DNA from: Babesia bigemina
Lineage: Eukaryota
Assembly: GCF_000981445.1 (NCBI RefSeq)
Contig: NC_027217.1
Span: 124,001-188,000, forward strand
Length of the DNA: 64,000 bases
Direction of reading: 5' to 3'
This document shows positions 27,531 through 53,108 of this stretch, in pieces (position 1 is the stretch's first letter; every line of letters begins with the position of its first letter). Position numbers and translations under genes: made by a program. The notes beneath the pieces were generated by a model. The model ran no database searches. It saw only the letters and a list, made by a program, of their open reading frames with translations, and was not told the origin of the DNA.

Positions 27531-27590
27531 ACTGCCTACTTCCAATCACCCACTAATCAACTCTCACAAAATTCCACGACTAGCCTCCAG

Positions 27591-32400: not shown

Positions 32401-34623
32401 GTGGGATCGTAAATTTCGTTTTTGTAAATGTTGCTGTATTGTCTGTTGAAGTCGTTGATCGAAAGTTTTTTTCTGGGCGCTCTCCCAAATGTCATCCGGT
32501 TTACTAAAATTAAAGGCAGTCGGGGATAGCCTTTGAAATTCTGGATAACAATATTCTTTGCCGTTTTCAACTTTCGGTATTTGACCATTAGGGCACAATT
32601 GGGAAGGAGTGGGAACTTTAGATGTAGCAGATCTAATCCCACCCGTCCCCCCTCCTGCATCATTGCCACCACCTCCTCCAACTTCACCTCTGCCGTCACC
32701 TGAATCAGGAGCCGCAGCGGCGGATCCCATACTACTGTCATCTGCACCATTCTGAGACACTTGACCACTTCCTTGTACAGACCCGGATGAAACCGCCTGC
32801 CCACCCGGGCCCTGGGCACCGGGTGGTGCAGCGCCTGTGGCTGGAATGCTTGGAGGCGGAAGGGAAACAGGCTGTGGACTTGTCGTAGCATTGTCCCGTA
32901 AAGCCTGGGCCGGATCTGCAGGAAGACCGGGAGGAGAGGGTGGCGCTGCAGTCACAGTCGGCGGTTGAGATGAAATAGTCTGCTTCTGAACAGTATCATC
33001 AGGTGGAGAAGATGTTGTATACCCGGCACTAGAAGAGCCTTGCGGGCCTTTCTCACTATTAGTCTCTGGCGCTCCCGCACTACCGGTAAGAGGAGATGAA
33101 GAAGATGTAGTCACCGATGAAGTTATAGGCTGCCGTTCGCTTTGACCGTTGTTTTGATTTGGAGATCTCACCGTTTTAGAGTCAGGGGATAAATGTGAAC
33201 TAGGCTGTTGAGCACCTTGGGATTGATGATTTGGAAGTCGAGAATCCCCTCCACCTCCCTTGGCTCTAGTACCACGCAGAACTATATGATGCGCCTGATT
33301 GTGCTGCATTCCGGAACCTTGAGCGACGGATGGTCTGGACGGAGGCGCAGGCTTTGCAGCCGCCGGTTTCGCGGCTGCTGCAGGCCGTGATGGTTTGGTT
33401 GATTTACATTCCTCGCCGTCCAAAAGTGTTTTCAACTTGTCCAAACCGTCATTGTCTCGCTTAAGCATTGAAATCGTATCATTCCACTTAGGTGGCAATG
33501 TATTCCATGCGTAGCCCATCGTTCCATAGCGTGTGTTGCCGAATATGAAGCCGTAAGGGAATATGTTTCCGGTCGCAAATTTCCGAAGGTGGTCTTTTTT
33601 GACATTGCCATCCTTAGGGTAGCCTGTACTAATTTTGTTGACATTTTTCCTCACCTCAGGCAAATGATTTCTGAACCATTTTGCAGTTTCGCTGGCAAAT
33701 GTCTCAGTGTTAACCTTATCAACACTCGGTGCCTGGCCGGTGTACGAAAAGGCGTTGTCGTTGAAAAAACTTCCCAAATGTTTATCCAGTGTGAAGCAAT
33801 GCTCTTTCAATTTACCCAAATTAATACATTTTTTAGGATGCTGATTTCCTAAATCCCTATCCAAAACTTCTTTTAATTTGGCACCATTATTTTTCTTCCC
33901 TGCCTCACCAACAATCTGGCAAAACGTGCTCACCAAGCGAAGCACATTCGCGGTGTTAACCTGGTGAGTGCCGGCACCAGAGAACACTGAAATCAAGAAC
34001 GTGTCGCGAAAATCGTTTTGCACACCTTTCTCCTTTTTCAAAATCTTTTCAAGGTCACCAACCATATTCTTACCCTGGGGATAGGCATAGCTAACACTAT
34101 ACTCATAACCATATGTTAGCTCCTCGGGACCGAATCCTCCTGTAATAACATCGTAAGTTGAGGACACGTTCCATCTTAGATAGTCCTGCAATGCGCCACC
34201 ATGGTCTGCGTAGCCATTACCCCACCAACTCCATTCCTTCTTCCACCCAGGATACAAATGCTCCCAATGCGACCCTCCTACTGCGGCATATTTATAATCT
34301 ACATTGTACAATAAGAAATACAATGCTGCAAAAATTTTTGGAAGGCACTCCAAGAGAGCGTTGACGATTTCTTTAGGGCTCTTCTTGTAATCGCCGGTAG
34401 CTGGCTGCTTACATAGTTTGCGATAAAACGTAGACACGTTGTCGAGGAATGTGATGAAGTAACCAGGCAATTGTCCCCCTACAGTTGTGGTACCATAATA
34501 TTGGCTCTTACGCGTAGCCAAATCTGCGGCCACATGTGGATGCATCTCATTCGCATTTTTCAACCACTCCAGGAACTGAAGACAGTCCTTAAGAGTGCTG
34601 AGCGAAATTCCATGAGATGTCAT
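29482..34623 (-). CDS. Large ves-like variant surface antigen, copy B, apparently full length
   Basis: Same N-terminus (TLKDCLQFLEWL) and C-terminal domain as copy A. Complete TM (FIFTLVALWSLALLILANTML) followed by cytoplasmic tail YRLDVLRIRSHL. Confidence 0.85.
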   Translation of the reverse strand: MTSHGISLSTLKDCLQFLEWLKNANEMHPHVAADLATRKSQYYGTTTVGGQLPGYFITFLDNVSTFYRKLCKQPATGDYKKSPKEIVNALLECLPKIFAALYFLLYNVDYKYAAVGGSHWEHLYPGWKKEWSWWGNGYADHGGALQDYLRWNVSSTYDVITGGFGPEELTYGYEYSVSYAYPQGKNMVGDLEKILKKEKGVQNDFRDTFLISVFSGAGTHQVNTANVLRLVSTFCQIVGEAGKKNNGAKLKEVLDRDLGNQHPKKCINLGKLKEHCFTLDKHLGSFFNDNAFSYTGQAPSVDKVNTETFASETAKWFRNHLPEVRKNVNKISTGYPKDGNVKKDHLRKFATGNIFPYGFIFGNTRYGTMGYAWNTLPPKWNDTISMLKRDNDGLDKLKTLLDGEECKSTKPSRPAAAAKPAAAKPAPPSRPSVAQGSGMQHNQAHHIVLRGTRAKGGGGDSRLPNHQSQGAQQPSSHLSPDSKTVRSPNQNNGQSERQPITSSVTTSSSSPLTGSAGAPETNSEKGPQGSSSAGYTTSSPPDDTVQKQTISSQPPTVTAAPPSPPGLPADPAQALRDNATTSPQPVSLPPPSIPATGAAPPGAQGPGGQAVSSGSVQGSGQVSQNGADDSSMGSAAAAPDSGDGRGEVGGGGGNDAGGGTGGIRSATSKVPTPSQLCPNGQIPKVENGKEYCYPEFQRLSPTAFNFSKPDDIWESAQKKTFDQRLQQTIQQHLQKRNLRSHNSSTSINQSSSTAPRHYPQHTSSHHRHGKPYYVPGDGRRRHFGVAILGVPPLEVNGEAVPDTSSKRIQKENRRYGESGIKLVDLKLREKHNQGLREVQHQWMQDAEKIKKADDDWKQQKEEGKVLRRFDDYSIMQHEKKREAAGKLDKKLKFGDPQKNKEADWHKQAEAEDKRLQEQYQKYYAPKHHNPNAIYPSFAPIQDPFANSLKGGAIADLRDFMPDGESVLDPPSDEEHFEKEYNDKIDREALKWHVDTQAFINWHKRDMVNSAEDLKNSESTYITHMRNVSSLFSGTPADNSQGLPGRMPLQSLAAISAPTGLPITPPKPTMNAPKLKSKTIPASPIPDITGHPIKDFNRNSPMPPIPIEIQAKEFNLYETATNSNTTRHHSLSVTQPIQPALPYITIPNMNPESDTDYSNNIGVFKNYGFTVDPNPNMCNNLWNYAHDSATSSTFPPPPDSDHLPPPTDVKAMLFWLVGFNTYGIIAKMERHMEGLLMALNGDTFYPKYALQVNGDLSLSASHIADTLTEACLYSAHVLNGIMRMQSGDALSNIDFKLEYDKLHYSPDPACLLCQLRDYAYACHYQLQFLKAQCSRGKIHGGWQDCKYGSDITASKSPLQAFLTDNWDSDFETHPFDPCNPCLKSRVRMGFRKDDLPEESENGITLSSILTPSCGGEDPLLTLCSYLNCITRRTPRTTGELVSFFHNFGNELYGYASESLSSLGNSLSTPHDHCPDWDHLKNSDLQAVSGIRGSESLKSNSNHDNEHPRTLSTLVGCGSDSATCHPRCSPITYRAYALYSQSFAHTYLSWAVYLPDRLWESLQKLHYDLKKHVSIKCSSLHLCSTALPLLYLHGFTPPEVGSQVSLKCSDVITKLKEIVNGRPIASLMNAMDNFLYGIREPFIFTLVALWSLALLILANTMLYRLDVLRIRSHLTRSKGSHVIDVKALLTDGTKMPSLYDIDYFDEDPIGRIFIQ
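29873..30696. repeat. 824-bp tract identical to 22132-22955
   Basis: Direct comparison with copy A. Confidence 0.9.
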
Positions 34624-34683
34624 TCTGTCCCCAACGACTTGTACACTAATACGCTACTTACAAATAGCCGCGGCCACTTCCCC

Positions 34684-35745: not shown

Positions 35746-38700
35746 AAACGATAGACCTATTGACTAGAGAACCTTCGAGAGGCACTAGACTGGCTCATCC
35801 AGGTGCGGCACTGTGCCAAGACTTCGACACTGTCCGACAATCTCTGCAAGCCGTTTCACAATGTTGCTCATGACGTTGAAAGATATCTGCCGCCTCGAAC
35901 CGCATCAGAAGAGCCGTCAGCCTGCGATGTTATTTCACGATTGTCAACGTTACAAGGCTCTGCTCCGGAAGACTCTGCGAATCCTAATAAGAACATTATA
36001 CATAATCTCTGTGCCTCCGCTGCCAGCCTATTAGGTTATCGATCTCCTGGGACCTACGACGGTTCCGGGATTGTGTACGGCAACGCCTTGCGTCTGTGCG
36101 ACGCCATCCTGGCATTCTTGTATGCCGTGCTCAGCGACGTCCATGCTAACCAGCCGTACGTTGCTGGTAAATATCTATTGTATGATGTTATTGTGGAGAT
36201 AAAATCCCAACTATGGCGTGGCCGCAAGGGGTTTCGCCAAGTCATCCCCAAGGTGGCCAATGACCTTGAGAGGTACAACGCCGCTGTCAAGGCTTCGAAC
36301 GAGAAGGTCAAGAAGCCGATTGAGACCGTGTTGCATTACGTGAAACCAGATGGTGAGTTGCATAAAGGTATACAAGCTTTGCAGATAACGGAAACATCGA
36401 CGTCCACTCAAGATGAGAGAACTGTGGAGTCCGCTGTATCCCTGGTGGAGGGGTGCAAAGAGGTTGCCGGGGTGTTTTCTAAAGGCTTGACGGCGGCAAC
36501 CAATGCCATAAATGACCTGAACCCCAAGCTGAAGAGAAAGCTTTAGAACGCCAGGAGAAGCTTTTTCAACCACGTTGACTGGCTGAGCAAGTGGTCCAAG
36601 AAGGGGCAGAAAAAGCTGTTGGACAAGATGGTACAAAAAAAATCAAGAGTCGGCTTAAACAGCTTGCAAATGCAGTCAAGGACAAAATTAAACAAGAAGT
36701 GCATACGGTTGTCGAGTTGTTGAAGGAACGTGTTAGGGAGATTAAAATGAAGTTGGAAGCAATTACTGCCAGTGTGGAGGAATATGTCAAGGAGCTGGGA
36801 ACGTGGATGGATGACGCAAAAACGTATATTCAAGATGTGAAAAAGTATGTTGATGACATCATGGAGCAACTTGATGGAAAGCATAGACAGGCTATTGACC
36901 AGGCCGCCGCGGACATTGACAGTGAGCTTGGCAAGAAAGTTGGGGAGTTGAATGAGTGGATTGAGAAAGCGGAAGCCGCCGTCAGTGTGGCTAAGCAGAA
37001 GGCGGATGATGTATTTAAGAGGTTGGATAAGGACAGCGGTACGAAGATTCGTCAAGGGTTTGAGAAGATTAGTGAAGCTAATAAAAAGATTTCGGAAGTT
37101 AATACCCAGCTGGGAATAGTGCACAAGGATTTGGGGGATTGGAAAGGTGTGGCGAAGAGTGTGCTCAGGAACTCTGTTCAGAAGGTTGGAGAGGTGAGTG
37201 ATAAGTTGGATCCAGGAAAACGAGGTGCAGAGCATCCTATTGGTGAGAACCTTAATCAAATCGATACGTCGAACGAAGATATTAAGAAGGCAAATGAACA
37301 ACTCAAAACTCAACTTGAAAAGCTGAGTAAGTGGATCACGGAAGCGGATGGTTTACGCCAAAAAGCACAAGAAAAAGCCGAGGATGTCTACAGGAGCTTG
37401 GCAGTTCATCAGCAGCTGAGCGATAAAATCAAAGAGATTCAGTAGCAAATCAGACGATTAAGGATGTTGACAGTGGGCTGGGTGATGTTGACAGCAAATT
37501 GGGAGAATGGAGTACGGAGGCTAGGAAAGTGATTCACGATGTGGTCAAAAAGGCTGAGGAGGTATATGAGAAGTTGAGTAAAGATGAAGATCAGGTGATT
37601 GGTCGAGGCATCAAGCAGATGAAAGAAGGCAGAGATAACGTCGAGAGAGTTGCTAAGGGGTTAACATTTGTTAGCGACGATTTGGAAAAATGGAGAGAGG
37701 CGGCGCACACTGTGCTTAGCACTGCGGTTGATAATGCTGTAGAGGTGCATAAAGCGTTGGATCCTGCAAGAAATAGCTCGACGCTTGGCACTGAAATTCA
37801 TAAAATTGATACAGCTAGACAGGGCATAGTTGATGCAAACAAGGAGCTTGAAAGCCAAGTGAAAAGTCTCAACAAGTGGATTCAGGATGCCGAAGATATC
37901 CGCCAAAAGGCTGAGACTAAGGCCAGGGAAGCGTATGATAAGTTGAGTGTTCATGAGGAGCTTAGCAAGAATGTGAAGAAAATTATGGAAGCAAAGGAAA
38001 AAATTGTAGGAGTCAACAAGAGTGTTAACACGCATATTGGGAGTCTGAAGCAGTGGAATGAGAAAGCTAAGGAAGTGCTCGACGGGGCAGTCACTAAGGC
38101 GCAGGAAGTTCATAATAGGTTGAAAGATAATGTTGGCCTAAAAGTTGAAGAAATAAAAAAGAGTAACGAAGCAATTAAAGAAGCTAATGCAAAGCTCGGC
38201 GACGAAGTTGCCAATCTAGGTAACTGGAACACCGCCGCCAGGAAAGTCATTGAGATGGCAGACAAGAAGTGTGATGAGATACTCAAGAGGGTTGATAAAA
38301 ATCATAATCAGCCGAAAGATGTTGAAATTTATAAGCAAGCTAAACATCTACAGGATCACGGCAAAAAGCTTCTAAAGGCTGCCAAAGATGCTAAGCAGAA
38401 AGTTGAATCCAAGGTCAAGGAGGCTTTGGACGCCGTGAAGGATATGGACGCAGATCTCAAGAAGGATTTGAAGGTGGTGAAGGATAAGATTAAGGAAGGG
38501 ATTAAAGATGTGATGAGTGAGTTTAAAGTTGGTGATTTGGGGAAAGAGGTGGAAAAGGATTTGAAGCAGTTGAGGGAGAGGATTGTTAAGCTAAGTGAAA
38601 ACGGTAAGGCCGATGGTCTTTTTAGAGGGCAGTTGAAAGCTCTTGATCAGGAAACTCAGAGTGTTAAGCAGAGGATTAACAAAATTAAGAGTGAGACGGA

Positions 38701-41586
38701 TAAGCAGCTTGAGGATCAATTTAGGACGAAGATCAAGGAGCCGCTTGACGTTAAAGTCAAAGCAGTCGAAGAAGCGATTGCGAAGGTTTACGAGAGATTT
38801 AATTCACAAGACGGTAGTGTATCATCGGAGAATAAAAAGAAACTTCAAAAGATTTTCGAGCATATTAGAGGACAGGTTGCAGATATTAAGGGGATGAAAG
38901 GTGGCAACACTGGTCTGGATGGCATTGTCGCGAACGTAAAGGGTCTGTATAACGCGTTTGTTCAGGGCAACGGCAAAGGGGTTGACGCAAGAGTAGATGG
39001 GTGGCTTGGAAGTATTTTGGGAATCAATGAGAATCAACGAGTGACGCATACTGATGGGATGAAGGCTGTGACATCGTGGATTAAAGAGTATAATGGCAAA
39101 GCTAGGAGGCTTGAAGACGCTTTGAAAATTGTTAAGGATCAAATTAAGGGTGCTCTTAGCAGCCAAATTAAAGCAGGTCAGAGGGTGATTACACAACAAG
39201 ATGTAGAAGATAACATTGTAAAAAATCTTACGAAGGTCAAAGAGGCTTGCCGAGCATTTGTAGAAGAGCTGGATAAGAAGCTGACAGACAAGCAAATTAC
39301 ACAATTTGCCAATCCGATAGTTAGCACAATTCAGAGTAGGTTGAGGCCAGGGCAGAGGCTACCGGCTGTTAATGACGAAAAACTCACCGCTGCCGTTAGA
39401 GCTGCCCTTATTGCACTTTGCAGTTGCGTCAAACAGGTAGCGGCGGAAGTAGATTATCTAGGCATAAGCCTGTTTGGCACAATTATAGACGAAACCAAGC
39501 AGGCTGTTGATGATCGTCACGGTAAGCTTGCACGAACAACTAACACGGGCACCCCTGGCAAAGCGAACCCCGACCCTGGCACAGCGCAAGCCGTGGACAA
39601 GGCGATAGAGGGGGTGAAGGAAATGGTTGACAACACGATTAAAGAGAAATTTGAGAACGAAGTTAAGAAGCCTGTTGAAGAGGCCGTCAATGGCCTTGAC
39701 ACTGCCGTTCAAGCTTACGACAAGAAAGCTAGGGAGCAAGTCAAGGATGCGGCCAAGGGGGCGATTGACAAGGCGGCTAATGTGATTAGTGACAGCACTG
39801 GGAAAATAGAATTGGGTGGGAACAATAAACTCATGAAAAATTTTAGTAATGCTCACAAGGAGATCACAACGAACCTCAAACCGAAACTTGAAAAATTACT
39901 CAATGACCACATTGGGAGGGATGACACGCGTGATGGTAAGAGAGAACAAATCAAACTGTCGAGAGATTTTAAAAGATATGATGATCATGTAAGCATTGGC
40001 TCTCTAACGGACTACGTGTATGGTCGACTTTCTCTAGCGATAGAGAAGGTTAGGGATGAGGGGCTGACTGATATTAATAAGCATGTTGGTAAGAGAGCTG
40101 GCGATAGGACTGAAGAAATAGACATCACTGGTTCGTGCAGCAAAGTAGAAAAAGAGCTAAAAGATATCGTCGATCTACTTACTCACAATGACAAAATAAT
40201 ACTCGACTATGGCGACATAACAAACAGAGGAGTCAAAACGTTGTTGACTGAGCTCGATGATGGACTTACCAAACCAGTCCCTGGTGTTTTTGACAAAGGC
40301 CTTGAAACAATCACAAAGGTTATTGGAGACCTGCAAAGAGACACGTTTGATACTAAGTCCAAGACCATTGAGGAAGCCGCCGCAGAAATTAGGAAGGAGG
40401 TTGAAGTACTTAAGAAGAAGTTGCTGAGTGATGGTGGTAATGATGACGTTATTAACGCATTAAAGGGGTTGAAGGATACTGGTATGTCGAGTGGAACATG
40501 GAACGGCAAAGGTGGCAGTCCAATAGATGGTCTCAAGAAAATCGAGAGTGAGCTCGAAAGGTATAATGAGGTGTTAGGGAAGCAACCTGGTATAATCGGC
40601 GATGCCGTCTACGGAATTAGGGATGCACTTGCAAGAATCAAAATTAAGTTGAATGAGCCCCTCACTTATGATGACGTCGTGCACCATTTGACAAGATTAG
40701 AAAAAAAGATTGGTATAGGTGATGAGAATAATGAATACAGTCTTCAGAAAATAATCAAAGCGATCAACAAGCTAAGAGCGGGGCAATTTAGTGTAAACCC
40801 GAAAGCCATCCAGCGAGCCGCGGGTGAATTTATTAAAGAACTTAGACTGATTCAGTATGTTTTGAAAGGTGAGCGAAACAATGACGTAATTATAACGTTG
40901 AGTGATTTGAAGAATGTCGGCTTAAGCGTAAATGATTGGCACAAGCATGAAAACGCAAAAGGTCTCCATAAAATCGAAAATGAACTCAAACTTCAACAAA
41001 GTCAGTTGAACGGGCAACCGAAACTAATAGGCTCAGGCGTGGAACAAATTGCCAATGTGCTGGAAGAGGTGCGAACTGCGTTACAGAGTATAGACGGAGG
41101 TACGAAAGGTGACGTGATAAACAGATTGGGAGCTCTACTAAGAGATGCATTCAATGGCTCAGAGTGGCAGAATGGTAGAGGTAAAAAAATCACTAGTCTC
41201 GGCAAAATTAAGCAGGACCTTCACCAGCAGAAGGAGAGTTTGGCTCAGCAATATGAAACAATTGACAAAGCAACCGAAAGCGTAATGCACGAAACACAGG
41301 ATATGCTTAGAAAGGCAAGCCAGAAGTTAAGTAGTGATCTCATTAGTGATACCATCGTGAAGAATTTACAGTTGTTAGAAAAGATGATTGTCCGTGGTCA
41401 AAATGGCGATGACAGTCTTCAAGGAATGTATGAGAAGATTAGTGGACTGCAAAATGAGGAAATCCATAAAAGTTCCGAAGCCATCTTTGCAGCGAAGCAA
41501 CAGGTTGGCAAGGAACTTAAAAGGCTTAAAGATAAATTACAAATCGATGTTAGCAATAAATTGGAAGACTTGGTGATAAATGGGTT
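35746..41586 (+). pseudogene. Decayed ves-like long coiled-coil antigen ('extracellular matrix-binding ebh-like' type in Babesia annotations), truncated by a retrotransposon
   Basis: N-terminus KR*TY*LENLREALDWLIQV resembles the ves start ..KLTDCPENLRE.IDWLIQV; YDGSGIVY and LCDAILAFL motifs. Stops at 35752, 35761 and 36544; frameshifts at the A8 run 36635-36642 and at ~37441-37445; no ATG. Antigen-like sequence ends at ~41586. Confidence 0.8.
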
Positions 41587-41678
41587 CGGCCTCCTTATTA
41601 AATTAAGTTATCTCATCTTATAGTGTGCTATGTGGCTACGTGCCTTGGGCCGGTTTTCGTGTTTGCGGGGCTAACGCC

Positions 41679-42102
41679 TCACGCTGAAACCGGTTGCGGG
41701 ATCCACGCCGGTCCGTTGCCGGACGTCACTGGTGCCATCCATGCGGGCATCCATCCAGTTTGGGCTTGAGGGTCTTCTACGGAATCGTAGTCTTCTTTCG
41801 GCTTCATATCCCTCATCACTATTTTATGTGTTTCTTGGATCACTACCCTTTGTATGTGGGCTTCCATGCGATCCGATATGCCCAGGTCCCGTCTGTACTT
41901 GCTGTGCTCCTTTGTCACTATTCCCTCCCACGTCATAACGTAGGGGATAACCCTGATCTTGGTTTGCTGGTTAAACTGCCGCGCCTTGAGGTCCTCGATA
42001 AGGTCTTCATACTTCTGCTTCTTGAACTTCTCCGTATCCACTAGGTTGTCTTGATTGGTGATTCCTATCTCAAAAATGATGATGGTGTTATCACCAATAA
42101 CA
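41679..42102 (-). pseudogene. C-terminal half of the restriction-like endonuclease, out of frame with the RT
   Basis: Frame reads VIGDNTIIIFEIGITNQDNLVDTEKFKKQKYEDL... to TGA 41679. The CCHC knuckle, RHD/RHN and PD motifs are absent. Confidence 0.7.
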
Positions 42103-44448
42103 TATTTCCTTACATGATACCTCCAGGTCGATCTTGTCGAAATGCGTGATGTCCATGGGAATCACGCCGATGTAGTAGTTGATGACGCTGAGGGCGTACT
42201 GGTTGATGGCCATCGAGAGGTTTTTCCCCGACAGCTTTGACGCAGCCAGTAGCTCCGTTCTCCTGCATATCTCCTGTAGTATTATGTCGAACATTCCGTC
42301 GCTTGTAAGTGAGTTTGAAGTCTCTGTGACTCCCAAGTACTTGTACGTCTCCGGGCCTTCCATCTGCTTGGCGATGCTGGCGCACGCCTCCGTGTTGGTT
42401 GCCGACTTGTCGCGGTTGATCCTGAGTCCTATGTCGTTGAAGAACTTCTCCACTTCTCGGCCCATTCCTCTCATCGTACTTTCCTCGTGGGCGAAGAACT
42501 TGAGGTCGTCAATATAGAGAAAGTGGTTAGTGGCGAAGATCCTGCCGCCAGGCACGCTTAGCTCCACCTTGGGGAAGATGCGAGTCAGGTGCCTGCTCAG
42601 CGGGTCCAAGCACAGCACGAAGAGAAGGGGCGATAGGCTGTCGCCTTGGAGAATGCCCCTCTCTACTTTCTTGTGCATGATTGTGTTCTTGTTCCACCGT
42701 ATCTCTATATTCCACCTCTTGGTCGTCTGCTTGATGAAGTTTGATAACCACCCTGGTAGGTTAAGGTTGTCGATAACCCTTGCCAGGTACGCGTGGTCGA
42801 TTGAGTCGTACGCCTTCATGACGTCGACCCACGTTGCAAGTAACTTCCCCTTGTGCTTCTCGTTGAGCGCGATGTTCGCTAACGCGTGCTCCTTTGCACC
42901 CTGTACGTTGCTCCTCGTGCCCATCTGGTTCTCGGACCGTAGTCCCCTGCCATCGACTTCTCGCTTAAGCGTCTCCGTGGCACAACGGGTAGTTAGCTTG
43001 TATAGGTTGGACATGCAAGTGATCGGCCTGTACTGTGCGGCGGACTTTGGTTTCTTGTTCTTCGGTAGTAGGTACGTGATCCCACAGTAGAACCAGTCGT
43101 CCTGCACTTTGCCTTGCTGGCATGCCTCCTCTACTAGCCTATAAATGACTCTGTGAAGGGACGTGAGCCATTTAATGTAGTAGTTGTAGATCCCATCCGC
43201 ACCGGGCGACTTCCAATCTCGCAATTTCTTGACGATCGTGACGAATTCCTCGTATGTGGGAAAGCCTGCCATGTTCTCTGCCGGTGGTCTTTCGACCAGG
43301 TATCCTTCACCGTTGTGCGGTGCGTTTGGCTTCACCCACATTTGCGCCCAGTACTCTATCATCATCCCCTCGTTTATCGCCGACTCGTCCGCGTCCTGCT
43401 GATTCTCCAGTGTCCTGTAGAAGTGTCCCGTGTAAAGCTCGAACATGCGGTTATGGTTGTACAACTCCTGCTTGAACTTGGCGTTCTTGAGTTTGTCCTG
43501 CTCCTTTTGGAGCTCCTCTTGGGTCCTGCTGATCACGTATGACAGTTCCTGCGGCTTGTCCGCGATCATGTTGTACTTGTCCATTTGGCGATAAACGCGT
43601 TTCCTATCCTCCTTCTCCAGGGGGACCTTCTGCTTGTATTTCAGAAGTAATGCTCCTATCTCCTCCAGCTCCTTGATCCTCCTCTCAGCTGCCTCCTTCT
43701 TTCCCGAGGACGACGATGGTTTCGCGCTGTACTTGTCGTAGCAGTCCTGTGCCGTTTGATACAAGATGGCTAGCATCCCCATGTCAGTGACTGGGTTGTG
43801 CTTCACGTAGTTGTGGACCACTAGATCCAGCGACCTAATCGCCGTGAAGTCGAGGGAGTCCATGGTGTGTCTTTTGTTCTTTACTGTCCTAATAACACCA
43901 GGCTCCCTCAACCTCTGTGCCATGATCCGGTCGAAATCCTCCTGCAGGGCGTTGTATGAGTCGACGTCGTGCAGCGATGCTATTTCTCCAACATCCGTCG
44001 GTTGGCTCCGCGCTGCTTTGGCGACTACCTGTCTTGCCATCTGCTCCACCTCCTTGTGGGTCTTGTGGAATTCGAAATGCTCGTTGGCATATTCCGCGAG
44101 GACCTTCCATCCTCCTCGTGGCATCCTCTGATACTTCGTCACTACTGCCTTGTAGACGTCCGGTACCCAATGACACCATGGTCCATCGATCTGACGCATG
44201 ACACAGTGCAGGAACTGTAGCTTGGCATTTAGCCTAGCGTAATGCGGCGGCATTCGTGGCGTGTTCCCGGCCCGTTCAGCCTGCGGGGCGTGCCCTTCGG
44301 GTGCCCTCGGCAACGCAGCCGTCTCAGTGAGCGCCACCTCACTGGCGGTTCCCGGTGCTATACTGTTGTTTGATTCTCTCACAGGCCCGACTTGCTCAGG
44401 TTCCTCTTCGTCCACATCCATAAAGTCATCAGACGATATGGAATACAC
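42091..44448 (-). CDS. Retrotransposon reverse transcriptase ORF (no ATG at the 5' edge; C-terminally broken)
   Basis: 785-aa stop-free frame with the RT core and YIDD catalytic motif. Confidence 0.85.
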   Translation of the reverse strand: MYSISSDDFMDVDEEEPEQVGPVRESNNSIAPGTASEVALTETAALPRAPEGHAPQAERAGNTPRMPPHYARLNAKLQFLHCVMRQIDGPWCHWVPDVYKAVVTKYQRMPRGGWKVLAEYANEHFEFHKTHKEVEQMARQVVAKAARSQPTDVGEIASLHDVDSYNALQEDFDRIMAQRLREPGVIRTVKNKRHTMDSLDFTAIRSLDLVVHNYVKHNPVTDMGMLAILYQTAQDCYDKYSAKPSSSSGKKEAAERRIKELEEIGALLLKYKQKVPLEKEDRKRVYRQMDKYNMIADKPQELSYVISRTQEELQKEQDKLKNAKFKQELYNHNRMFELYTGHFYRTLENQQDADESAINEGMMIEYWAQMWVKPNAPHNGEGYLVERPPAENMAGFPTYEEFVTIVKKLRDWKSPGADGIYNYYIKWLTSLHRVIYRLVEEACQQGKVQDDWFYCGITYLLPKNKKPKSAAQYRPITCMSNLYKLTTRCATETLKREVDGRGLRSENQMGTRSNVQGAKEHALANIALNEKHKGKLLATWVDVMKAYDSIDHAYLARVIDNLNLPGWLSNFIKQTTKRWNIEIRWNKNTIMHKKVERGILQGDSLSPLLFVLCLDPLSRHLTRIFPKVELSVPGGRIFATNHFLYIDDLKFFAHEESTMRGMGREVEKFFNDIGLRINRDKSATNTEACASIAKQMEGPETYKYLGVTETSNSLTSDGMFDIILQEICRRTELLAASKLSGKNLSMAINQYALSVINYYIGVIPMDITHFDKIDLEVSCKEICYW

Positions 44449-44499
44449 GGTCGGAGAGCGGCTGCCACCGTTTCCGACAGCCTCCCCTGCCGGTGGCTG

Positions 44500-45050
44500 T
44501 TACCGCAGCATCTACGGCACCATGGTGTGAGAAAAGCGTGACTGCCGCTATGCATAACCTAGTTCATTTAGCCCACTGAAAAGATGACTGAATACGGTAA
44601 GGTGAGTTGTGAGTTATCTGTGAGAGATGTCTACGGCATCCGACCTTGCTAGTGCAATGGGGCGCTGGGTGGAGAGCGACCAACGTAGGCAGCTGTTATA
44701 GTCGTTCTAAGTGAAATTATGCATCGTATGTTCGATGAATGACTGGTATGGTAATATAATGTGCATAGCTAGGCAATGAATGCCGCTGCGTCTCCCACGT
44801 GATGGCCAGTGGACTGCGTGGTTACGTGACACTGATGGCAACAGGGTAAATGATGAGCATCTTGACTAAGCAATGTAGTTTACATAGATACTCTTTTATG
44901 ACACAAGTGTGATTACATTCTGAAGCAGCGTTGACAACGTTGGTCTGTGATGGATAGTGTCAGCTGCGCTACAGGTGCCCGTTGACCTGCATGCCACGGC
45001 CAAGATGGTATCAACATGCTTTATCTTGGTTGTACTTCAGTTGTGATAGC
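44500..45050. repeat. Conserved ves-like 3'-flank spacer, inverted homolog of 28868-29415
   Basis: See 28868-29415. Confidence 0.85.
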
Positions 45051-45155
45051 TGCATAGTTTTGATGTGGCTGGCTATTCTCGGGACGACGGGCACCTGGCT
45101 GACGTTGAAGCTGATGGGAGCTCAGTTGCCTTGCATAGGCGCGTGTTGATGAGTG

Positions 45156-45282
45156 GTTGGTGAGTGCTGCTTAGGTGATTGATGTTTGCAGGTTGAGGGG
45201 ACTGGGAGCGGCAGTGGTAGTGTTGCAGTTGGTGAGTGCTGCTTAGGTGATTGATATGTTTGCAGGTTGAGGGGACTGGGAG
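45156..45282 (+). repeat. Two ~53-55-bp direct repeats, each containing an intron-like GTGAGT...TTTGCAG
   Basis: gttggtgagtgctgcttaggtgattgat(at)gtttgcaggttgaggggactgggag at ~45156 and ~45228. Confidence 0.85.
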
Positions 45283-45294
45283 GAACAGGGGAAG

Positions 45295-45852
45295 ATGGTG
45301 ACGATATGGAACGGTCAAGAGTGTACCAAGTGTGGTAACAAATGTCGAAGGGCTCAAGAGTGTAATTGCTGTCCTTGGTGTTGTTATGAGTGCAATAAGG
45401 CAGGTGTGGAAAATTGCGATGTATGTTGGTATCATATCTGGAAGCGCAAAGGAGGCTCGATGCGTTACGATTGCAGGAATTTCGGTTGTGAAACAAAATG
45501 TGCAGGCAAGGAGCACACATGTCAATGTACATGTTGTAGAGCGAAATGTCAAGTACCTGGCGCCTGCAGTCCCCCCGCTCCGCGGCCTCCCGTACCTTCC
45601 CCCGGTGCTGAGCGTCAGACAAGTGAACGGAGGTTGACCGATTCCTCCACTGAAGAAAGTTCCGCTCGCAGTTCCGATGCAGAAACCTCCACACCTCCCC
45701 CCCCTGACCCCCAAGCCATCGCCGCCGTCATCGTTGCCATCATCGTCGCCATCGTCCTGCTCGACCTGTGCATCTTCCGCTTCCCGGTGGGCCGCAACAT
45801 CCGCGATTTCCTCGTCCGGAAGATACCGTTCTGCATCGCGTTCTACAGCTAA
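45295..45852 (+). CDS. Small cysteine-rich single-pass membrane protein, copy 2
   Basis: CNCCPWCCYEC..CQCTCC domain, Pro/Ser stalk, TM AIAAVIVAIIVAIVLLDLCIF, tail RFPVGRNIRDFLVR. Paralog of 28323-28811. Confidence 0.75.
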   Translation: MVTIWNGQECTKCGNKCRRAQECNCCPWCCYECNKAGVENCDVCWYHIWKRKGGSMRYDCRNFGCETKCAGKEHTCQCTCCRAKCQVPGACSPPAPRPPVPSPGAERQTSERRLTDSSTEESSARSSDAETSTPPPPDPQAIAAVIVAIIVAIVLLDLCIFRFPVGRNIRDFLVRKIPFCIAFYS

Positions 45853-46805: not shown

Positions 46806-49800
46806 TTACGACAAATGGTATGCGTCTCCGTCATCGTCCTTGTCGTATCCGTAATCTGACCCTTGGTAACGATTACCGTCCCGTTTCAGGGCGTTGGTGG
46901 TAAGCCGAGCAATGTAATAATTGATAATGTCTTCTTTAGTTCTCCCATATCGGGCCATTTGACTTTCAATTATATCCCAGTCTTCGCCATATATACGATA
47001 TAGCCGTACGAACGCTGCAACCTCCTTTTCTGACCAATCTACGACAGTCCTTTGCGGCGCCTGTGTAGGATTGTAGGTTTCAGCTTCTTCGGCACTTTCA
47101 CCGTCATCGTAATTTCCCACATGTACGTCCTGCAACTGCGATCTTTCCATCCACCTGGGGTTTTCCACGACATGGGATGTGCGGCTTTCTTGGTGCGCCG
47201 TAAAAGCAGGTGCATTAATGGGATAGCCGCTGCTGCGGTGCGATTCATCCATCGCCTGATATGATTCTTCGACATTTGAGTCATATGCGTCATAACCCAT
47301 AGGATCTTGTACATTTTCTTCGTCACTCTGGGTTTCGTACTGCGGCGTCACGGGTTCTGACACAGAATCTTCCACTTCTTCCTCCTCAGCGGAGTACTCT
47401 GGCGTGTCTTCCGCACGGTTCCAATCGGGTGATGGACTGTCGTACTGCTCGGAATCATCTGCATAGTTCATGTCGTGGCTTTCGGTGTCTTCCATGTCTG
47501 AAGTGCCATCCACCAGAGTTGCCGAATACCTGCGCTTGAATTGCATTACGTTCGCCCCCACTCTTGTATCTATACGCTGCTGGTCAGCGATTGTGTCCTG
47601 CATGACTGCCTCCAGCACAGATCGCCCAGCGACCTTTTTGGAACAAATGGGCTTTAGTGACATGAAATGATCCGTCTTTACAGCGCTCATCACCGAAGAC
47701 AGTTGCTGCGGATCGCCGAAGTCACGGCAGCCATTCATGATGAGGCAACCGCGTCTTAGCGTAGTTTCAGCATCTCCGGGCATTGTTTTCAGCGGTAATT
47801 GCATATTCTTGCGCGTAGTGAGACACCGGAACTTCGTAGGAACGAAGTAACCCTCGTTCAAGTTGTCCAGCATTAATTGGAAGCTGTCTTCCATCGGTGA
47901 CCAGTTTCCACGGTGCTCGGTTAACGCCACATCATACGGTTTGACGTTGTCCACAACCGCAGTGCTTAGTAGGTGGTCGTTGACTGTTGTGAATGCGAAA
48001 CTGTTCTGCTCGCAGAGACTTTTCACGCTGTCAGTGTAGCAGTCGTCTAGTATGCTATCAATGGCTTGCATAACGTGAGCATCACGCCTGACGAATCGTG
48101 ACACATCGTACTTGTTTTTCGGTTTTGACTTCATATCGTTGATGCGCTCCTTAAGCTTCAGCCTATACTTGTATTTGTAGTAGAAGGACACGCAGTCGCC
48201 GCACGTTTTGTTTTCGATGAACTGAGCTATTTTGGCAAAGTTTTTGGGATACATGAGGTATTTCTCAACAAATATCCGGCACTCGTTTCGTGTCCACACG
48301 TTGCTGATGCGGCCATTAATTTCTTCAGCCAAGACGGCCTCCGATGGGAGTGAATTGCGCCTGTCATACTGCACGCAATGGTCGAGCTTATAATAGTTGT
48401 AATCTGGGGACGTCATGATTTGATATATTGGCACTGTTTTGAAGTTTGGAATGCAGTGCAACGGGTCGCTCAAAGTGTCCATGCACGAATACGTCCATCG
48501 TAATCCAGGCCCAGTGAGGTTGCTGTAACTTGGCGCCAGCCACACCGGTGCTCTGCTCCCATCATCCTCATAATTGTCCGTAACTGCAGCCTCTGGACCC
48601 AAACGTCGACGCCCGGCGTTCGGTTTTCTTGTTGTGTGTATCTGCTGGTAGTCCGACATCTCCATCTCCTTATCGTCGCGGGCGTTTTGCGCCAGCGTGC
48701 TGAATCTTTGCTGCTGGTTGCAGATATCCCCGATGCCGTAGCTGTTAACTTCGAATGGTGACAATACATTGTTGGTTATATAGGGCCAATTGATGTCGTT
48801 TTGTTTAAACCCGGCCGGCAGTGGTACGAAATTGTTGGGCTCATCCAATGCTCTTACGGGCAGAACACCCCATGCGAAATCATCCACTTTCGGTGCAGCG
48901 GCTTTCATACGCCTCAGGTAATGGTGCCACCGGCGTTTGTACAGCTTGCAAGCATGCGCTTCCGCATTTAAGATCTCGTTGCGCACAAGTATGTGTTCTC
49001 GCATAACCTGAAGCACCCTTTTAACGCAGAGCGGCACTACCACCATATCCCTTAGCAGTTCGGAACATGCCAATGTCTCAGAGTCACCATTCGTGTTCGC
49101 ATCTACAAAATCCTTGATTATTGTGGGGGAACTGGTATCAGTGCCGATCGTCGAAGCATCGTCCGCATAAGGGGTAGCGGAGCTCTCGACTAGGGTTCCT
49201 GCGCCGCTGTTGCTGGACACATCATCGTATACCCTGACATTTGTTGGGGTATTGCTGACAAGCTCATCCAGATGATGCAACATCACCAGGCTTCTGTCCA
49301 TAATGCACTCATCCAGCATAATATCCTCGCTCTGAGTCCTTTCGTCGGAGTCAGGCGGGCACATACCCTCTAGATCTTCCAATACGCCATAGCTACGGTG
49401 CACTTCAACCCTGGGCGCACGTTTGAACCGTTGTGACATTATCTCCAATGTGTCGATTGACTCGAACCGCCAGGGCATGATGCAGCTCGGCGCGTACGGC
49501 AGATACAACGCTATTTCCACGTAGTCTTCGGAATTGGGGTCATCAATGAGACACTCGCTACTCAATTTAAGCTTTTCTCGTGTCAGTTGCGAAACATCGA
49601 TCTCCAGCGCGTCAAAACAATCCGTGAACTCGTTTTTACGCAGTATACGATGCAGTTCCCGCTGCTCTTTTGCAAGGGTATCCACGGCATCCCATAGCGT
49701 GAAACTACTGAGATCCTTGAATTCCTTGAGCTTTAACATCGGTGCGTCCTCAACCTGTGTGATTCCTTCTGGGTTGGCATTGCGATCGTAGGTATCCGGA

Positions 49801-52331
49801 GACCCTTGTGAAAATAACGCACAGTTACCGCCCGACAAGTTGCCCCCATCGCAAGTTAGGGGTTGGCTTATGGTGTGACCATCAGATGGGTTATTGGTAT
49901 TAAATGCACCATGGAGCCCAAGTTCGCTTGGCATATCTTTCCCACAGTCGGTGTGGTCGGGTGTCTCATTGCTGTGAACATCATCCTTGATCGCGTCCGT
50001 TATAATATCCAGCTTGCAAACGAAGGGACTGCGTTGTTTCCATGAGAGTGGTATGTGTTCAGCCTTGATCCGCAAAGTGAACCTCTCCTGCAGAACGCCT
50101 TCTCGAGGCAGATTAGGGTATTCTGCATCCAGCATGTTCTCAGGGCATTCCATGTCGTGCCATACAATCCCACTATTACCCTGACGACGATTTTTTGAGT
50201 TATCATGAATCACTCGGTCGATTAACCTTCGATCGGAGAGGCAGTTGCAGAAACAGACACACTTCCCCAGCATCGAAGCTAACATGTCAGTTCTTGCGAG
50301 GGCGGTCTCCACCTCGAAGCGCAAACTTTCCGCATCATTAGCATTGCTTGATCCTGAATGCTTCGTACGCTTATACTCAGTAGTGCATGTATCCTTACAG
50401 GTGCAGCACCTTGGGCAGCACATGTCATTATTGCAGGAATGCTCGCTTGACCCTACCCATTCAGGCCTTGGTATACGCACTTCAGCGATGGCGCTGTGGC
50501 AAACATCTTTCAAAAACCCGGCATACGCGTTGAATTGCGCCTTTAGATTTGAATCTAGGATGGATTTGGCGAAATCAGGGTCGGAAGTCCACGGCCCAGT
50601 CTTGCCGAGGCCTTCCTCGTCGGATTCCTCCAGGGCCTCACCATACTCTGCACCTTCAGCATAGTCACTTGGTTGTATTTGACGCGTTGCAGAGGCACCA
50701 TTTATATTGCAAATTGCATCGGCAGATTCTACCTTACATATACTGGGCTCGAGATCGCCTGTGCAATGCTTTCCATCGTTCGGCAGCTTGCCCTCTGGCA
50801 CCTTCTCGTTTTGATGCTCCCACACATAACAACCAGCAGCTGTGTAGCAGTCGGTAAGCGCTTGCGCCTCGAACGACTGCTTGCTGGTGCTGCACAACCC
50901 TTGGACGCAAGCCAGTCCGTCGCTGAAGGTAATGCACGGCGATGCTGTAACTACTCCGCGATATTGGGAGAAGGAATCGTTCAACTCAGGGTTACCATTT
51001 TCCGCATCGTCGGTGATGTCTACAGACCTCCCTGGAGAGTTTTCTCGCGTTTGTTTCACACCATCAACGACATCTGGGCTGTAATGCCAGTTCAAGAGTA
51101 GCTTTGAGTATTGCAGGGCTACAATGTTGTGCCGAGTTTCTCTAACGAGTGATTTCAGAGCATCCTCAAGCTGTGCAAGCGTTTCGGAGTCCATAGGTAG
51201 CCCTGCTTGTTCTGGACATGCGTCCGCATCACCGTCCTTCCCTATAAGTCGCTTCTTGACTACGCTTACAGCCTGAACAACATCCATCATCTGGTCTACC
51301 ATCTCCCTCTTCACCCTTTTGGCGGCACTTTCCATGTTTTTAAGGTGTCCTCTGTCTTGATCATGCAAGGGCAACGGTGCTTGCGTCGCTGGAGTGATAA
51401 CGGGCAAAATGTCCTCCGTGTCTGTACCACTTTCAGCACCCGATACTTCTGGAAGTTGTTCTTCTACACCAACATCCGCGTGCTCTGACGTCTTACGGGT
51501 ATACGGTCTCTGCTGCCGGTGCCTTTGTGCATGTACTGCTTGCATCCCGTCTTCACCGCCTCCTGTGTCAATGCGTTCCGTCCTCCTTCTGTACTTCACA
51601 CTGCTACAATAGCGCCGCTTGTAAGGGTTGCTGGAATATTCATAATGCGTTAGCAAGTCTTCATCGTCGGTCATGTGAGCAAGGCTTGGGGCCTGCACCG
51701 CAGCCTGCCTCGATCCACGCCTGGCAGGCTGTTGTTGAGTTGCGGTTGCTGATGACGAATAATCACGCTTTGTTCTCTTACGCCCCACCCTAGGGTCAAT
51801 GACGTCATCGACCCTGATTTTGACGAACGTGTTGTTGCAGTACCCAAAAGGCAACGAAACGAGTGATGCCGGGTTGAACCTAAGGGACGAAGAAGAAGAT
51901 CGGCAATGACTGAGCAGCGAGTAACCGTCTTGTTTTCTTGTCGGCGTAGCTGTGCTTCCAACCTGCGCCGTATCAGCAACGCCTTGGCTTCCAGATCCGC
52001 CCGACGTCCTTGCCATTGGCGATTCCTGCGGCGTGTGCATTCTCTTCGGCCACGGGCTGGTTACAGCATCGTCTGTCGTGTTCAATGCAGCTCTAGGGCT
52101 GGGCGCCATTATCGTGTTGCCACTCGCACGCGGACTCTGCCGTCCCCTGCTGCCATATCCACGTGACATAGGGCTGCGCACAGACTTGTCTGAGCTTCTT
52201 TGCGACAGCCTGTTCATGAATAATTCATGGGCACGATGGTTGATGCCGGACATGAGTCTCAGGAGTGAGAGCGAGGGCGACATACACTCCAACGACGCTG
52301 GAGTGCCCCGCGGAACGTCCCTTCGATCCAT
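46806..52331 (-). CDS. Large double SANT/Myb-domain protein (N-CoR/Snt1-like chromatin cofactor)
   Basis: WTRNECRIFVEKYLMYPKNFAKIAQFIENKTCGDCVSFYY (N-CoR SANT1-like) and WSEKEVAAFVRLYRIYGEDWDII; 1841-aa single ORF. Confidence 0.75.
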   Translation of the reverse strand: MDRRDVPRGTPASLECMSPSLSLLRLMSGINHRAHELFMNRLSQRSSDKSVRSPMSRGYGSRGRQSPRASGNTIMAPSPRAALNTTDDAVTSPWPKRMHTPQESPMARTSGGSGSQGVADTAQVGSTATPTRKQDGYSLLSHCRSSSSSLRFNPASLVSLPFGYCNNTFVKIRVDDVIDPRVGRKRTKRDYSSSATATQQQPARRGSRQAAVQAPSLAHMTDDEDLLTHYEYSSNPYKRRYCSSVKYRRRTERIDTGGGEDGMQAVHAQRHRQQRPYTRKTSEHADVGVEEQLPEVSGAESGTDTEDILPVITPATQAPLPLHDQDRGHLKNMESAAKRVKREMVDQMMDVVQAVSVVKKRLIGKDGDADACPEQAGLPMDSETLAQLEDALKSLVRETRHNIVALQYSKLLLNWHYSPDVVDGVKQTRENSPGRSVDITDDAENGNPELNDSFSQYRGVVTASPCITFSDGLACVQGLCSTSKQSFEAQALTDCYTAAGCYVWEHQNEKVPEGKLPNDGKHCTGDLEPSICKVESADAICNINGASATRQIQPSDYAEGAEYGEALEESDEEGLGKTGPWTSDPDFAKSILDSNLKAQFNAYAGFLKDVCHSAIAEVRIPRPEWVGSSEHSCNNDMCCPRCCTCKDTCTTEYKRTKHSGSSNANDAESLRFEVETALARTDMLASMLGKCVCFCNCLSDRRLIDRVIHDNSKNRRQGNSGIVWHDMECPENMLDAEYPNLPREGVLQERFTLRIKAEHIPLSWKQRSPFVCKLDIITDAIKDDVHSNETPDHTDCGKDMPSELGLHGAFNTNNPSDGHTISQPLTCDGGNLSGGNCALFSQGSPDTYDRNANPEGITQVEDAPMLKLKEFKDLSSFTLWDAVDTLAKEQRELHRILRKNEFTDCFDALEIDVSQLTREKLKLSSECLIDDPNSEDYVEIALYLPYAPSCIMPWRFESIDTLEIMSQRFKRAPRVEVHRSYGVLEDLEGMCPPDSDERTQSEDIMLDECIMDRSLVMLHHLDELVSNTPTNVRVYDDVSSNSGAGTLVESSATPYADDASTIGTDTSSPTIIKDFVDANTNGDSETLACSELLRDMVVVPLCVKRVLQVMREHILVRNEILNAEAHACKLYKRRWHHYLRRMKAAAPKVDDFAWGVLPVRALDEPNNFVPLPAGFKQNDINWPYITNNVLSPFEVNSYGIGDICNQQQRFSTLAQNARDDKEMEMSDYQQIHTTRKPNAGRRRLGPEAAVTDNYEDDGSRAPVWLAPSYSNLTGPGLRWTYSCMDTLSDPLHCIPNFKTVPIYQIMTSPDYNYYKLDHCVQYDRRNSLPSEAVLAEEINGRISNVWTRNECRIFVEKYLMYPKNFAKIAQFIENKTCGDCVSFYYKYKYRLKLKERINDMKSKPKNKYDVSRFVRRDAHVMQAIDSILDDCYTDSVKSLCEQNSFAFTTVNDHLLSTAVVDNVKPYDVALTEHRGNWSPMEDSFQLMLDNLNEGYFVPTKFRCLTTRKNMQLPLKTMPGDAETTLRRGCLIMNGCRDFGDPQQLSSVMSAVKTDHFMSLKPICSKKVAGRSVLEAVMQDTIADQQRIDTRVGANVMQFKRRYSATLVDGTSDMEDTESHDMNYADDSEQYDSPSPDWNRAEDTPEYSAEEEEVEDSVSEPVTPQYETQSDEENVQDPMGYDAYDSNVEESYQAMDESHRSSGYPINAPAFTAHQESRTSHVVENPRWMERSQLQDVHVGNYDDGESAEEAETYNPTQAPQRTVVDWSEKEVAAFVRLYRIYGEDWDIIESQMARYGRTKEDIINYYIARLTTNALKRDGNRYQGSDYGYDKDDDGDAYHLS

Positions 52332-53108
52332 CGTGATAAATTGACCAAAACTCCAATTTCAACTTTCCATGCTGTGGAATACTTTTGTTGAATCCACAAT
52401 ATTTATTTAAGCCATTTTGAAACCTCCTCACACGTATTGACGTGCCGGGTCAACATCAGGTGTTAGCCTGTCCTAATGCATCGCATGTCTACAGGGCTTT
52501 CTGACGAAGCCTATACTCTCTTGATGCACTGGTGTACAGTCGTGCGGTAGTACAGCATCGAAATATGCTTGGAAATTCCCTGTAAAAATATTGAGGTTGC
52601 GATATCTTATCCTCCAGGGTTGACTGTTCCGCGTTTTGAGTAAGCGCGGCGGAACGGTCCACACGATCCCGTGATAGTACTCCTTCAGAGTGACTCCGAC
52701 GCGTAATACCGTGGTATTTAGAGCGTGACCCTGTCTGAATACGCTCGCGGTAGTTTGGCCGATTCTTCGTCACGCACACGACGCGACATAAACGGAGACT
52801 CGGTGGTCCACTTAGGGCTCGAACTACTGTTTTATTTTACGAGGCGCGTCACTAATCGGCGCTCTTACGAGCATCGCCTCCCAAGCTACGTGGCAACGTC
52901 GTCCCCGCATCGCGCCGCCAGAACGCAATAAGGCTCTGACACGCGTTCAAAGTGTACGTACAAGGAATTACAATTTCAATACATGTGTACAGTTCCTATG
53001 TGTTGCTACGAGCCCAACGGAACCGTACACCCTACGCGTCGCGGTAGTGTTCGTTCAGGTGCCAGTTCCACGGATTCGAGTGGAATGTGTTACAACGTCC
53101 CGACCGCG

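What the first reader, a model, noticed from the sequence alone, without database searches (positions are those of the whole stretch)
41587..44495. RLE-type non-LTR retrotransposon inside a piroplasm antigen island
Seen: a stop-free 785-aa ORF with the RT core plus an endonuclease remnant, flanked on both sides by recognisable parasite sequence, which argues against simple contamination. Established: piroplasm and Plasmodium genomes are generally described as lacking transposable elements. From memory, the IFEIGIT/KY/IPYVMTWEG tail resembles RLE elements of microsporidia and invertebrates. Inference: horizontal acquisition (possibly in the tick) and fairly recent activity, since the RT frame is intact while the host gene has decayed.
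Basis: partly seen in the sequence, partly recalled or inferred. Interest (0 to 1): 0.8.

Follow-up and report, generated by a model that had tools for sequence, protein, structure and literature searches.

The report
Broken copy of young Babesia retrotransposon
This is a broken copy of a jumping gene already reported in Babesia parasites; its intact sister copies are almost identical, so the family was likely moving recently, and its closest named relatives outside the piroplasm parasites are mostly in microsporidia, which hints at, but does not prove, an ancient jump between unrelated parasites.

Summary
The element is real but dead, and the premise is out of date. The RT frame (42091-44499, minus) is 98% identical to 1347-aa Babesia bigemina proteins with RT, CCHC knuckle and restriction-like endonuclease. 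This copy lacks about 950 nt at its 5' end, and 788 nt (knuckle, catalytic PD) are replaced by 33 nt, shifting the frame. It truncates an already frameshifted ebh-labelled antigen-like gene. LINE-like elements in B. bigemina, B. ovata, B. divergens and T. equi are published (PMC9141347). Recent activity is likely, but the evidence is eight gene records at 99.7% identity or more, not this ORF. Babesia elements form one clade, and one piroplasm origin is not rejected (p-AU 0.57), so there was no recent uptake from ticks. They nest among microsporidian elements (SH-aLRT 99, 99), but AU tests of that nesting are borderline (p 0.058, 0.084). An ancient transfer is plausible; I found no paper on it. 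No contig bridged either junction in 8 runs.

The parts
41595..44499 (-). Defective copy of a B. bigemina RLE-type non-LTR retrotransposon (about 2.9 kb of an about 4.6-kb element)
   Evidence: tblastn of full-length P0003, 98%; contig of run X2 laid at 41598-42089 and 42123-44499, running 950 nt further at the 5' end
42123..44499 (-). N-terminal region and reverse transcriptase, full-length residues 157 to about 950; first ATG at 44421; the frame runs on into the filler to a stop at 42091
42325..43050 (-). RT core (Pfam RVT_1, E 6e-31) with QGD and YIDD
42090..42122 (.). 33-nt filler of unknown origin in place of 788 nt that held the end of the thumb/linker, CCHC knuckle, RHN and the endonuclease PD; shifts the frame
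   Evidence: joint 42089-42123, 788 letters between; a 14-nt match to a neighbouring gene is chance (51 of 200 shuffles)
41679..42089 (-). Out-of-frame remnant of the restriction-like endonuclease (E, KQKY) and C-terminus, full-length residues about 1213-1347
   Evidence: the fold of a sister C-terminal fragment (P0243) matches R2
41595..41678 (-). 3' UTR ending in an A/T-rich tail, no poly(A)
   Evidence: sequence; 3' end fixed by contigs of X2 and X4 that stop or diverge at 41598
35764..41590 (+). Host pseudogene of the 'extracellular matrix-binding ebh'-labelled family (intact paralogues 2969-3075 aa): frame breaks near 36640 and 37442, last about 1100 codons missing at the element
44500..45051 (+). 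Host flank homologous to the region downstream of the stop codon of the paralogue at 29482-34653; lies directly against the element's truncated 5' end
   Evidence: a contig of X3 has this flank with other sequence before 44498

Best explanation
This is a broken copy, missing its front end and its zinc-knuckle and nuclease core, of a single-ORF RLE-type (R2-like) non-LTR retrotransposon family of Babesia bigemina that was likely active recently and likely inherited vertically within Babesia. Full-length copies would move by target-primed reverse transcription: the C-terminal PD-(D/E)XK nuclease nicks DNA and the RT copies the element's RNA from its 3' UTR (inferred from domain content and fold likeness to R2, not assayed). 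This copy landed antisense in an antigen-like gene. A deletion during or after insertion likely removed the element's 5' end together with about 3.3 kb of the host gene, which would explain the missing target-site duplication; a separate event replaced 788 internal nucleotides with a 33-nt filler. It cannot move by itself. Copies likely persist in antigen islands because the rest of the compact genome tolerates insertions poorly (inferred).
For: 98.2-99.3% aa identity to the ten B. bigemina family proteins other than P0131 that were compared; P0131, named 'reverse transcriptase homolog', has the same deletion and 767 of 768 identical residues. Four distinct 1347-aa sequences under eight CDR accessions, 99.7-99.85% identical to P0003, some on 2.8-3.5 Mb contigs, with CCHC 1119, RHN 1146, PD 1202, E 1218, KQKY 1235. 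C-terminal model (pLDDT 82): 7 of 7 Foldseek hits with E below 0.001 are R2 proteins; VIA Z 13.5 (rmsd 3.6, 165 aligned) and 13.0 to R2Tg and R2Bm, next 8.4. A 4608-nt contig of run X2 holds the undeleted element. Babesia elements form one clade at support 100 in all four trees; piroplasm monophyly is not rejected and the constrained tree is 3.9 lnL better (p-AU 0.57). Element divergence B. bigemina / B. ovata 75-79% against 71% for the adjacent Myb-like gene. T. equi holds five 1312-1314-aa copies, four of them 98.2-98.7% identical to the fifth, P0061. Two further gene models fuse the element to paralogues of the same host family (P0122, P0149) and one to another neighbouring antigen-like family (P0132).
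Against: No contig bridged either host junction in 8 runs laid, and those runs barely covered the host gene, so this exact arrangement rests on one assembly. Some full-length records sit on small contigs (7-39 kb) that may be redundant. The Babesia tree joins B. caballi with B. divergens (SH-aLRT 91-97), whereas PMC10463595 places B. caballi nearer B. bigemina and B. ovata; a second B. ovata lineage (P0088) makes sorting of old subfamilies possible, but transfer between Babesia species is not excluded. The free trees do not join T. equi with Babesia. No genome was held, so copy number, target sites and enrichment in antigen islands were not counted.
Confidence: 0.85

Rival explanations
1. On origin: the piroplasm family came once, long ago, by horizontal transfer from a microsporidian sharing an invertebrate host, before or near the Theileria equi / Babesia split, and was then inherited and lost patchily.
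For: With distant outgroups, piroplasm elements lie inside a radiation whose named members are mostly microsporidia (Vairimorpha, Nucleospora, Hamiltosporidium, Pancytospora in the innermost clade; Enteropsectra and Dictyocoela outside it), behind branches of 99 and 99 and 97, 94, 96. T. equi RT-RLE is 51% identical to a Vairimorpha apis protein but 41% to B. bigemina. No other apicomplexan name appears in the listed hits.
Against: AU tests did not reject a tree with the piroplasm elements outside the radiation: p 0.084 (RT only) and 0.058 (RT to RLE). Many of the nearest rows are unnamed metagenome proteins of unknown host, and mite-like and Octopus-labelled members are in the radiation too, so the donor is not fixed. 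Trees were 'quick' mode, without bootstrap.
Confidence: 0.5
2. One reading: a recent horizontal acquisition by this parasite, for example in the tick.
For: Sister copies are nearly identical; related elements occur in mites.
Against: Present in five piroplasm species with divergence in step with a host gene; Babesia clade at 100; the nearest non-piroplasm proteins are only about 50% identical in the RT region; no tick name among listed hits.
Confidence: 0.04
3. Chimeric assembly or contamination by microsporidian DNA.
For: No read-level bridge of either junction.
Against: The family lies on megabase contigs of several species, including a subcloned, long-read B. caballi assembly (PMC10463595, passages); host homology stops cleanly at both ends; element G+C 0.53 against 0.51 for the Myb-like gene.
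Confidence: 0.05
4. The element actively targets ves/ebh-type antigen genes, or its RT helps to move them, rather than merely surviving there.
For: Three other gene models join the element to antigen-like genes; the two 3' junctions seen both have the same four bases next to the tail (n = 2); most RLE elements are target-specific (PMC4640811, passages); ves1 genes are routinely transposed, and a retro-origin of ves1-alpha has been suggested (PMC4066756, passages).
Against: No genome-wide count against a background; insertion points differ in position and orientation; B. bovis moves ves genes without any detected TE (PMC9141347).
Confidence: 0.15

Closest known systems
LINE-like TEs of Babesia and Theileria equi (Rodriguez and Makalowski 2022, PMC9141347: models Bova_19, Bdiv_22, Tequ_3)
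   Same: Same species, same class; 0.97% of the B. bigemina genome; three B. divergens copies classed LINE R2 by MGEScan; Tequ_3 hits an R2 Pol protein in Swiss-Prot. I did not align the paper's model sequences to this element, so identity of family is inferred from species, class and abundance.
   Different: The paper gives no RT tree, no RLE anatomy, no account of intact near-identical copies and no microsporidian link; it leaves one gain with two losses and two gains with one loss as equal.
R2 retrotransposons (R2Bm 8gh6/8ibw, R2Tg 9dou/9nl3, 9nl2)
   Same: Single ORF with RT, CCHC knuckle and C-terminal PD-(D/E)XK nuclease; fold match; profile match E 2e-30.
   Different: Distant in sequence (14-18% in the nuclease region); no Cys/His zinc fingers seen in the N-terminus of P0003; this copy is not in rDNA.
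Non-LTR elements of microsporidia (Vairimorpha, Hamiltosporidium, Nucleospora, Pancytospora, Enteropsectra, Dictyocoela proteins; LINEs labelled Dong-R4 in Microsporidia sp. MB, PMC13174016)
   Same: Nearest named non-piroplasm relatives, up to 49% in the RT region, colinear from the N-terminal region to the nuclease.
   Different: Babesia proteins have a longer low-complexity N-terminus (1347 against about 1145 aa) and a long stem branch. That these microsporidian hits are the Dong-R4 elements of that paper was not tested.

Membership tests
Non-LTR retrotransposon | Non-LTR-type RT with catalytic YxDD | tested here: met
   RVT_1 E 6e-31; YIDD; best PDB matches are LINE-1 ORF2p and R2
Non-LTR retrotransposon | No long terminal repeats; simple-sequence 3' tail | tested here: met
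   No terminal repeat family; A/T-rich tail at 41595-41610. The 5' end is missing here, so only the 3' end was seen.
Non-LTR retrotransposon | Dispersed multi-copy family with different flanks | tested here: met
   14 proteins in two clusters on several contigs; another 3' flank in X4; different fused neighbours
Non-LTR retrotransposon | Target-site duplication | tested here: inconclusive
   Longest shared word between the flanks is 5 nt, but the 5' junction coincides with loss of about 3.3 kb of host gene, so a duplication would not survive
RLE-type (R2 group) element, full-length family members | C-terminal CCHC knuckle, RHN and PD..E..K nuclease after the RT in one ORF | tested here: met
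   P0003 motifs, conserved in alignment A1; fold match to R2
RLE-type autonomous element, this copy | Complete ORF with knuckle and nuclease active site | tested here: not met
   CCHC, RHN and PD absent; remnant out of frame; 156 N-terminal residues missing
R4/Dong clade | RT phylogeny with reference R4, Dong, NeSL, HERO, CRE and R2 elements | not tested
   No named reference elements of these clades came from any call; the R4/Dong label is a recalled lead only
R2 clade in the strict sense | Insertion into 28S rDNA | tested here: not met
   This copy lies in a protein-coding antigen-like gene; other copies are fused to such genes
RLE-type element | Sequence-specific target | tested here: inconclusive
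   Two 3' junctions only, sharing four bases
Active retrotransposon | New insertions or demonstrated RT and nuclease activity | not testable with these tools
   Only near-identity of full-length copies

The most novel reading that the evidence does not exclude
B. bigemina and T. equi carry still-mobile RLE retrotransposons that their ancestor acquired from a microsporidian, a transfer between two unrelated intracellular parasites, and the element keeps knocking out or rearranging variant-antigen genes.
Probability: 0.35. Interest if true: 0.7.

Novelty: already known. Interest (0 to 1): 0.36.

Why it matters
The copy itself is ordinary debris. The family matters more than the literature I saw suggests: complete, nearly identical RT-plus-nuclease genes in B. 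bigemina and T. equi would make these among the few apicomplexans with a possibly live retrotransposon, a source of insertions and deletions in antigen islands and of strain markers. If the microsporidian nesting holds, it would settle the gain-or-loss question left open in PMC9141347 and give a case of TE transfer between parasites of different supergroups; published microsporidian transfers that I saw are with animals (PMC4202319, title and passages). It also offers a testable source of RT for the suggested retro-origin of ves genes.

Tried and rejected
No whole genome was held, so there is no genome-wide copy count. Metagenome scan with P0003 alone: 70 pattern matches, none a relative; with alignment A1: 79 loci, none over 52% identical in the RT region; flanks of L006 and L011 look like an animal (mite-like by low-complexity content, my judgement), not a microsporidian. 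Sequencing runs: 24 listed, 9 hold part of the stretch, 8 laid; none bridges a junction; no RNA holder listed, and the runs guessed as RNA (X5, X6) are not used as evidence of expression. Filler origin from a neighbouring ves-like gene: rejected as chance (51 of 200 shuffles). TSD search: nothing over 5 nt. Pfam Cas9_C hit on the remnant (E 0.005, below cutoff): rejected. Pfam names no VESA domain in the host gene or its neighbours; 'ves-like' is my recalled reading of their C-termini. Names for the next tier of relatives: 10 of 10 clusters unnamed. Literature: ten searches showed no paper linking piroplasm LINEs to microsporidia; term look-ups found no 'Babesia' or 'Theileria' in PMC7313128 or PMC4202319 and no 'reverse transcriptase' in the main texts of PMC3505731, PMC4066756 or PMC5660447; their supplements, Repbase and subscription journals were not seen and may bear on novelty. 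Earlier scan notes: none by sequence; the eight by words concern other genomes and were not used except as a pointer to PMC4640811. Tree rows dropped: of 210 proteins matching the RT region 169 covered 80% or more, 162 were at least 350 aa, 93 remained after dereplication; the 48-, 42- and 35-row sets were hand-picked from these and from later hits.

Full report
Observation. The minus-strand frame 42091-44499 is open for 802 codons (776 from the first ATG) and carries a non-LTR-type RT (Pfam RVT_1, E 6e-31; QGD, YIDD). A second frame, 41679-42089, holds the IFEIGIT / KQKY / IPYVMTWEG tail. The flanks are piroplasm sequence: on the left a gene 43-54% identical to B. bigemina proteins of 2969-3075 aa labelled 'extracellular matrix-binding ebh'; on the right 552 nt that match the region downstream of a neighbouring paralogue; further out a Myb-like gene, a kinase and MCM genes.

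The copy is broken. The best database hits are B. bigemina proteins at 98% identity. Against the 1347-aa P0003 the window holds residues 157-950 and, in another frame, about 1213-1347. A 4608-nt contig of run X2 lies on 41598-42089 and 42123-44499, has 788 letters where the window has 33, and runs 950 nt further at the 5' end. The lost piece holds the CCHC knuckle (1119), RHN (1146) and the nuclease PD (1202); only E1218 and KQKY remain, out of frame. So the RT core is open but the element cannot move by itself. A public gene model with the same deletion (P0131, 767 of 768 residues identical) is already named 'reverse transcriptase homolog'.

The host gene has frame breaks near 36640 and 37442 and stops at 41590, about 1100 codons short of its paralogues. 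The sequence right of the element corresponds to what follows a paralogue's stop codon, so the element's 5' end and the gene's last third are both missing at one junction. One deletion, during or after insertion, explains this and the absence of a target-site duplication (longest shared word 5 nt); this is inference. The 33-nt filler has no significant source in the window (51 of 200 shuffles match as well). None of the 8 runs laid bridges a host junction, and they hardly cover the host gene, so the local arrangement is unverified by reads.

The family. Two clusters hold 14 B. bigemina proteins; four distinct 1347-aa sequences, under eight CDR accessions, are 99.7-99.85% identical to P0003, some on 2.8-3.5 Mb contigs, others on small ones that may be redundant. 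A model of a sister C-terminal fragment (pLDDT 82) has R2 proteins as all 7 Foldseek hits under E 0.001 and as the top two VIA hits (Z 13.5 and 13.0; next 8.4). The full-length element is therefore a single-ORF RT-CCHC-RLE retrotransposon that would work by target-primed reverse transcription like R2 (inferred). Near-identity of complete ORFs makes recent activity likely. T. equi shows the same pattern: five 1312-1314-aa copies among 13 cluster members, four of them 98.2-98.7% identical to P0061. B. ovata, B. caballi and B. divergens hits seen were partial or fused. Three other gene models join the element to antigen-like genes (P0122, P0149, P0132); without a genome I could not tell targeting from survival.

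What is in print. Rodriguez and Makalowski 2022 (PMC9141347; whole text read, supplement searched by term) report LINE-like elements in B. bigemina (133,787 nt, 0.97%), B. ovata, B. divergens and T. equi, none in B. bovis, C. felis, T. parva, T. annulata or T. orientalis, and leave one gain with two losses and two gains with one loss as equal. The B. caballi genome paper (PMC10463595, passages) notes an expanded RT gene cluster. The premise that piroplasms lack TEs is thus out of date. Ten searches and term look-ups in five further papers found no statement on RLE anatomy, intact copies or a microsporidian link (listed under Tried and rejected); supplements of those five papers and Repbase were not seen.

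Origin. In four trees (93, 48, 42 and 35 rows) the Babesia elements form one clade at support 100, with this copy next to P0003 (in the two trees that include it) and B. ovata as sister. Element identity between B. bigemina and B. ovata (75-79%) is close to that of the adjacent Myb-like gene (71%), as vertical descent predicts. B. caballi groups with B. divergens, against the published species tree, but B. ovata has a second lineage, so old subfamilies may have sorted. T. equi is unplaced in the free trees; holding it with Babesia gives a tree 3.9 lnL better (p-AU 0.57), so one origin is allowed, not shown. With distant outgroups all piroplasm elements lie inside a radiation with microsporidian members on both sides of branches at 99 and 99. 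Forcing them outside costs 24.9 and 32.7 lnL but is not rejected (p-AU 0.084 and 0.058). Many nearest rows are unnamed metagenome proteins, and mite and Octopus-labelled proteins belong to the radiation as well. No tick name appears among the 120 best hits listed in each of two searches. I put an ancient transfer from a microsporidian at about even odds and a recent tick-borne one at a few percent.

Verdict. A real but dead copy of an already reported family. What I did not find in print is that the family is RLE-type, has complete near-identical copies in two species, and branches among microsporidian elements. Interest 0.36; about 0.7 if both the transfer and current mobility were shown.

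Noticed in passing
window 46806-52358 (Myb-like gene); proteins P0060, P0146, P0260: In B. ovata an RT fragment of this family is fused by annotation to the orthologue (71%) of the window's Myb-like gene, with two more RT pieces on the same 48-kb contig: the element lies at the same gene in the sister species, apparently on its other side or inside it. Hotspot, rearrangement or misassembly.
   Followed up: partly
window 41591-41610; run X4: A second 3' junction has one more A/T-rich tail unit and the same four bases next to the tail as this copy; a weak hint of target preference (n = 2).
   Followed up: partly
window 41607-41707; run X6 record 4: About 100 nt of the 3' UTR (13 differences) sit alone in the middle of a 2790-nt contig: possibly a severely 5'-truncated insertion or a related subfamily's end.
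   Followed up: no
window 45156-45294: Short tandem duplication (72-74 nt spacing) that draws very high contig depth in several runs; apparently a high-copy motif upstream of a small Cys-rich membrane-protein frame (45271-45852) whose C-terminal part matches a high-depth contig in X6.
   Followed up: no
window 21783-27545 and 29482-34653: Two tandem antigen-like genes share a nearly identical stretch of about 250 residues near the C-terminus while differing elsewhere, as after gene conversion; the first has a different, apparently degenerate end.
   Followed up: no
protein P0088 (B. ovata): A second, divergent lineage of the element in B. ovata (about 50% to the B. bigemina type), so at least two subfamilies coexisted in Babesia.
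   Followed up: partly
L006 5743-8883, L011 81-1607: Relatives of the family embedded among animal-like genes, matching Dermatophagoides-labelled proteins in the hit lists: the radiation also reaches mites.
   Followed up: partly
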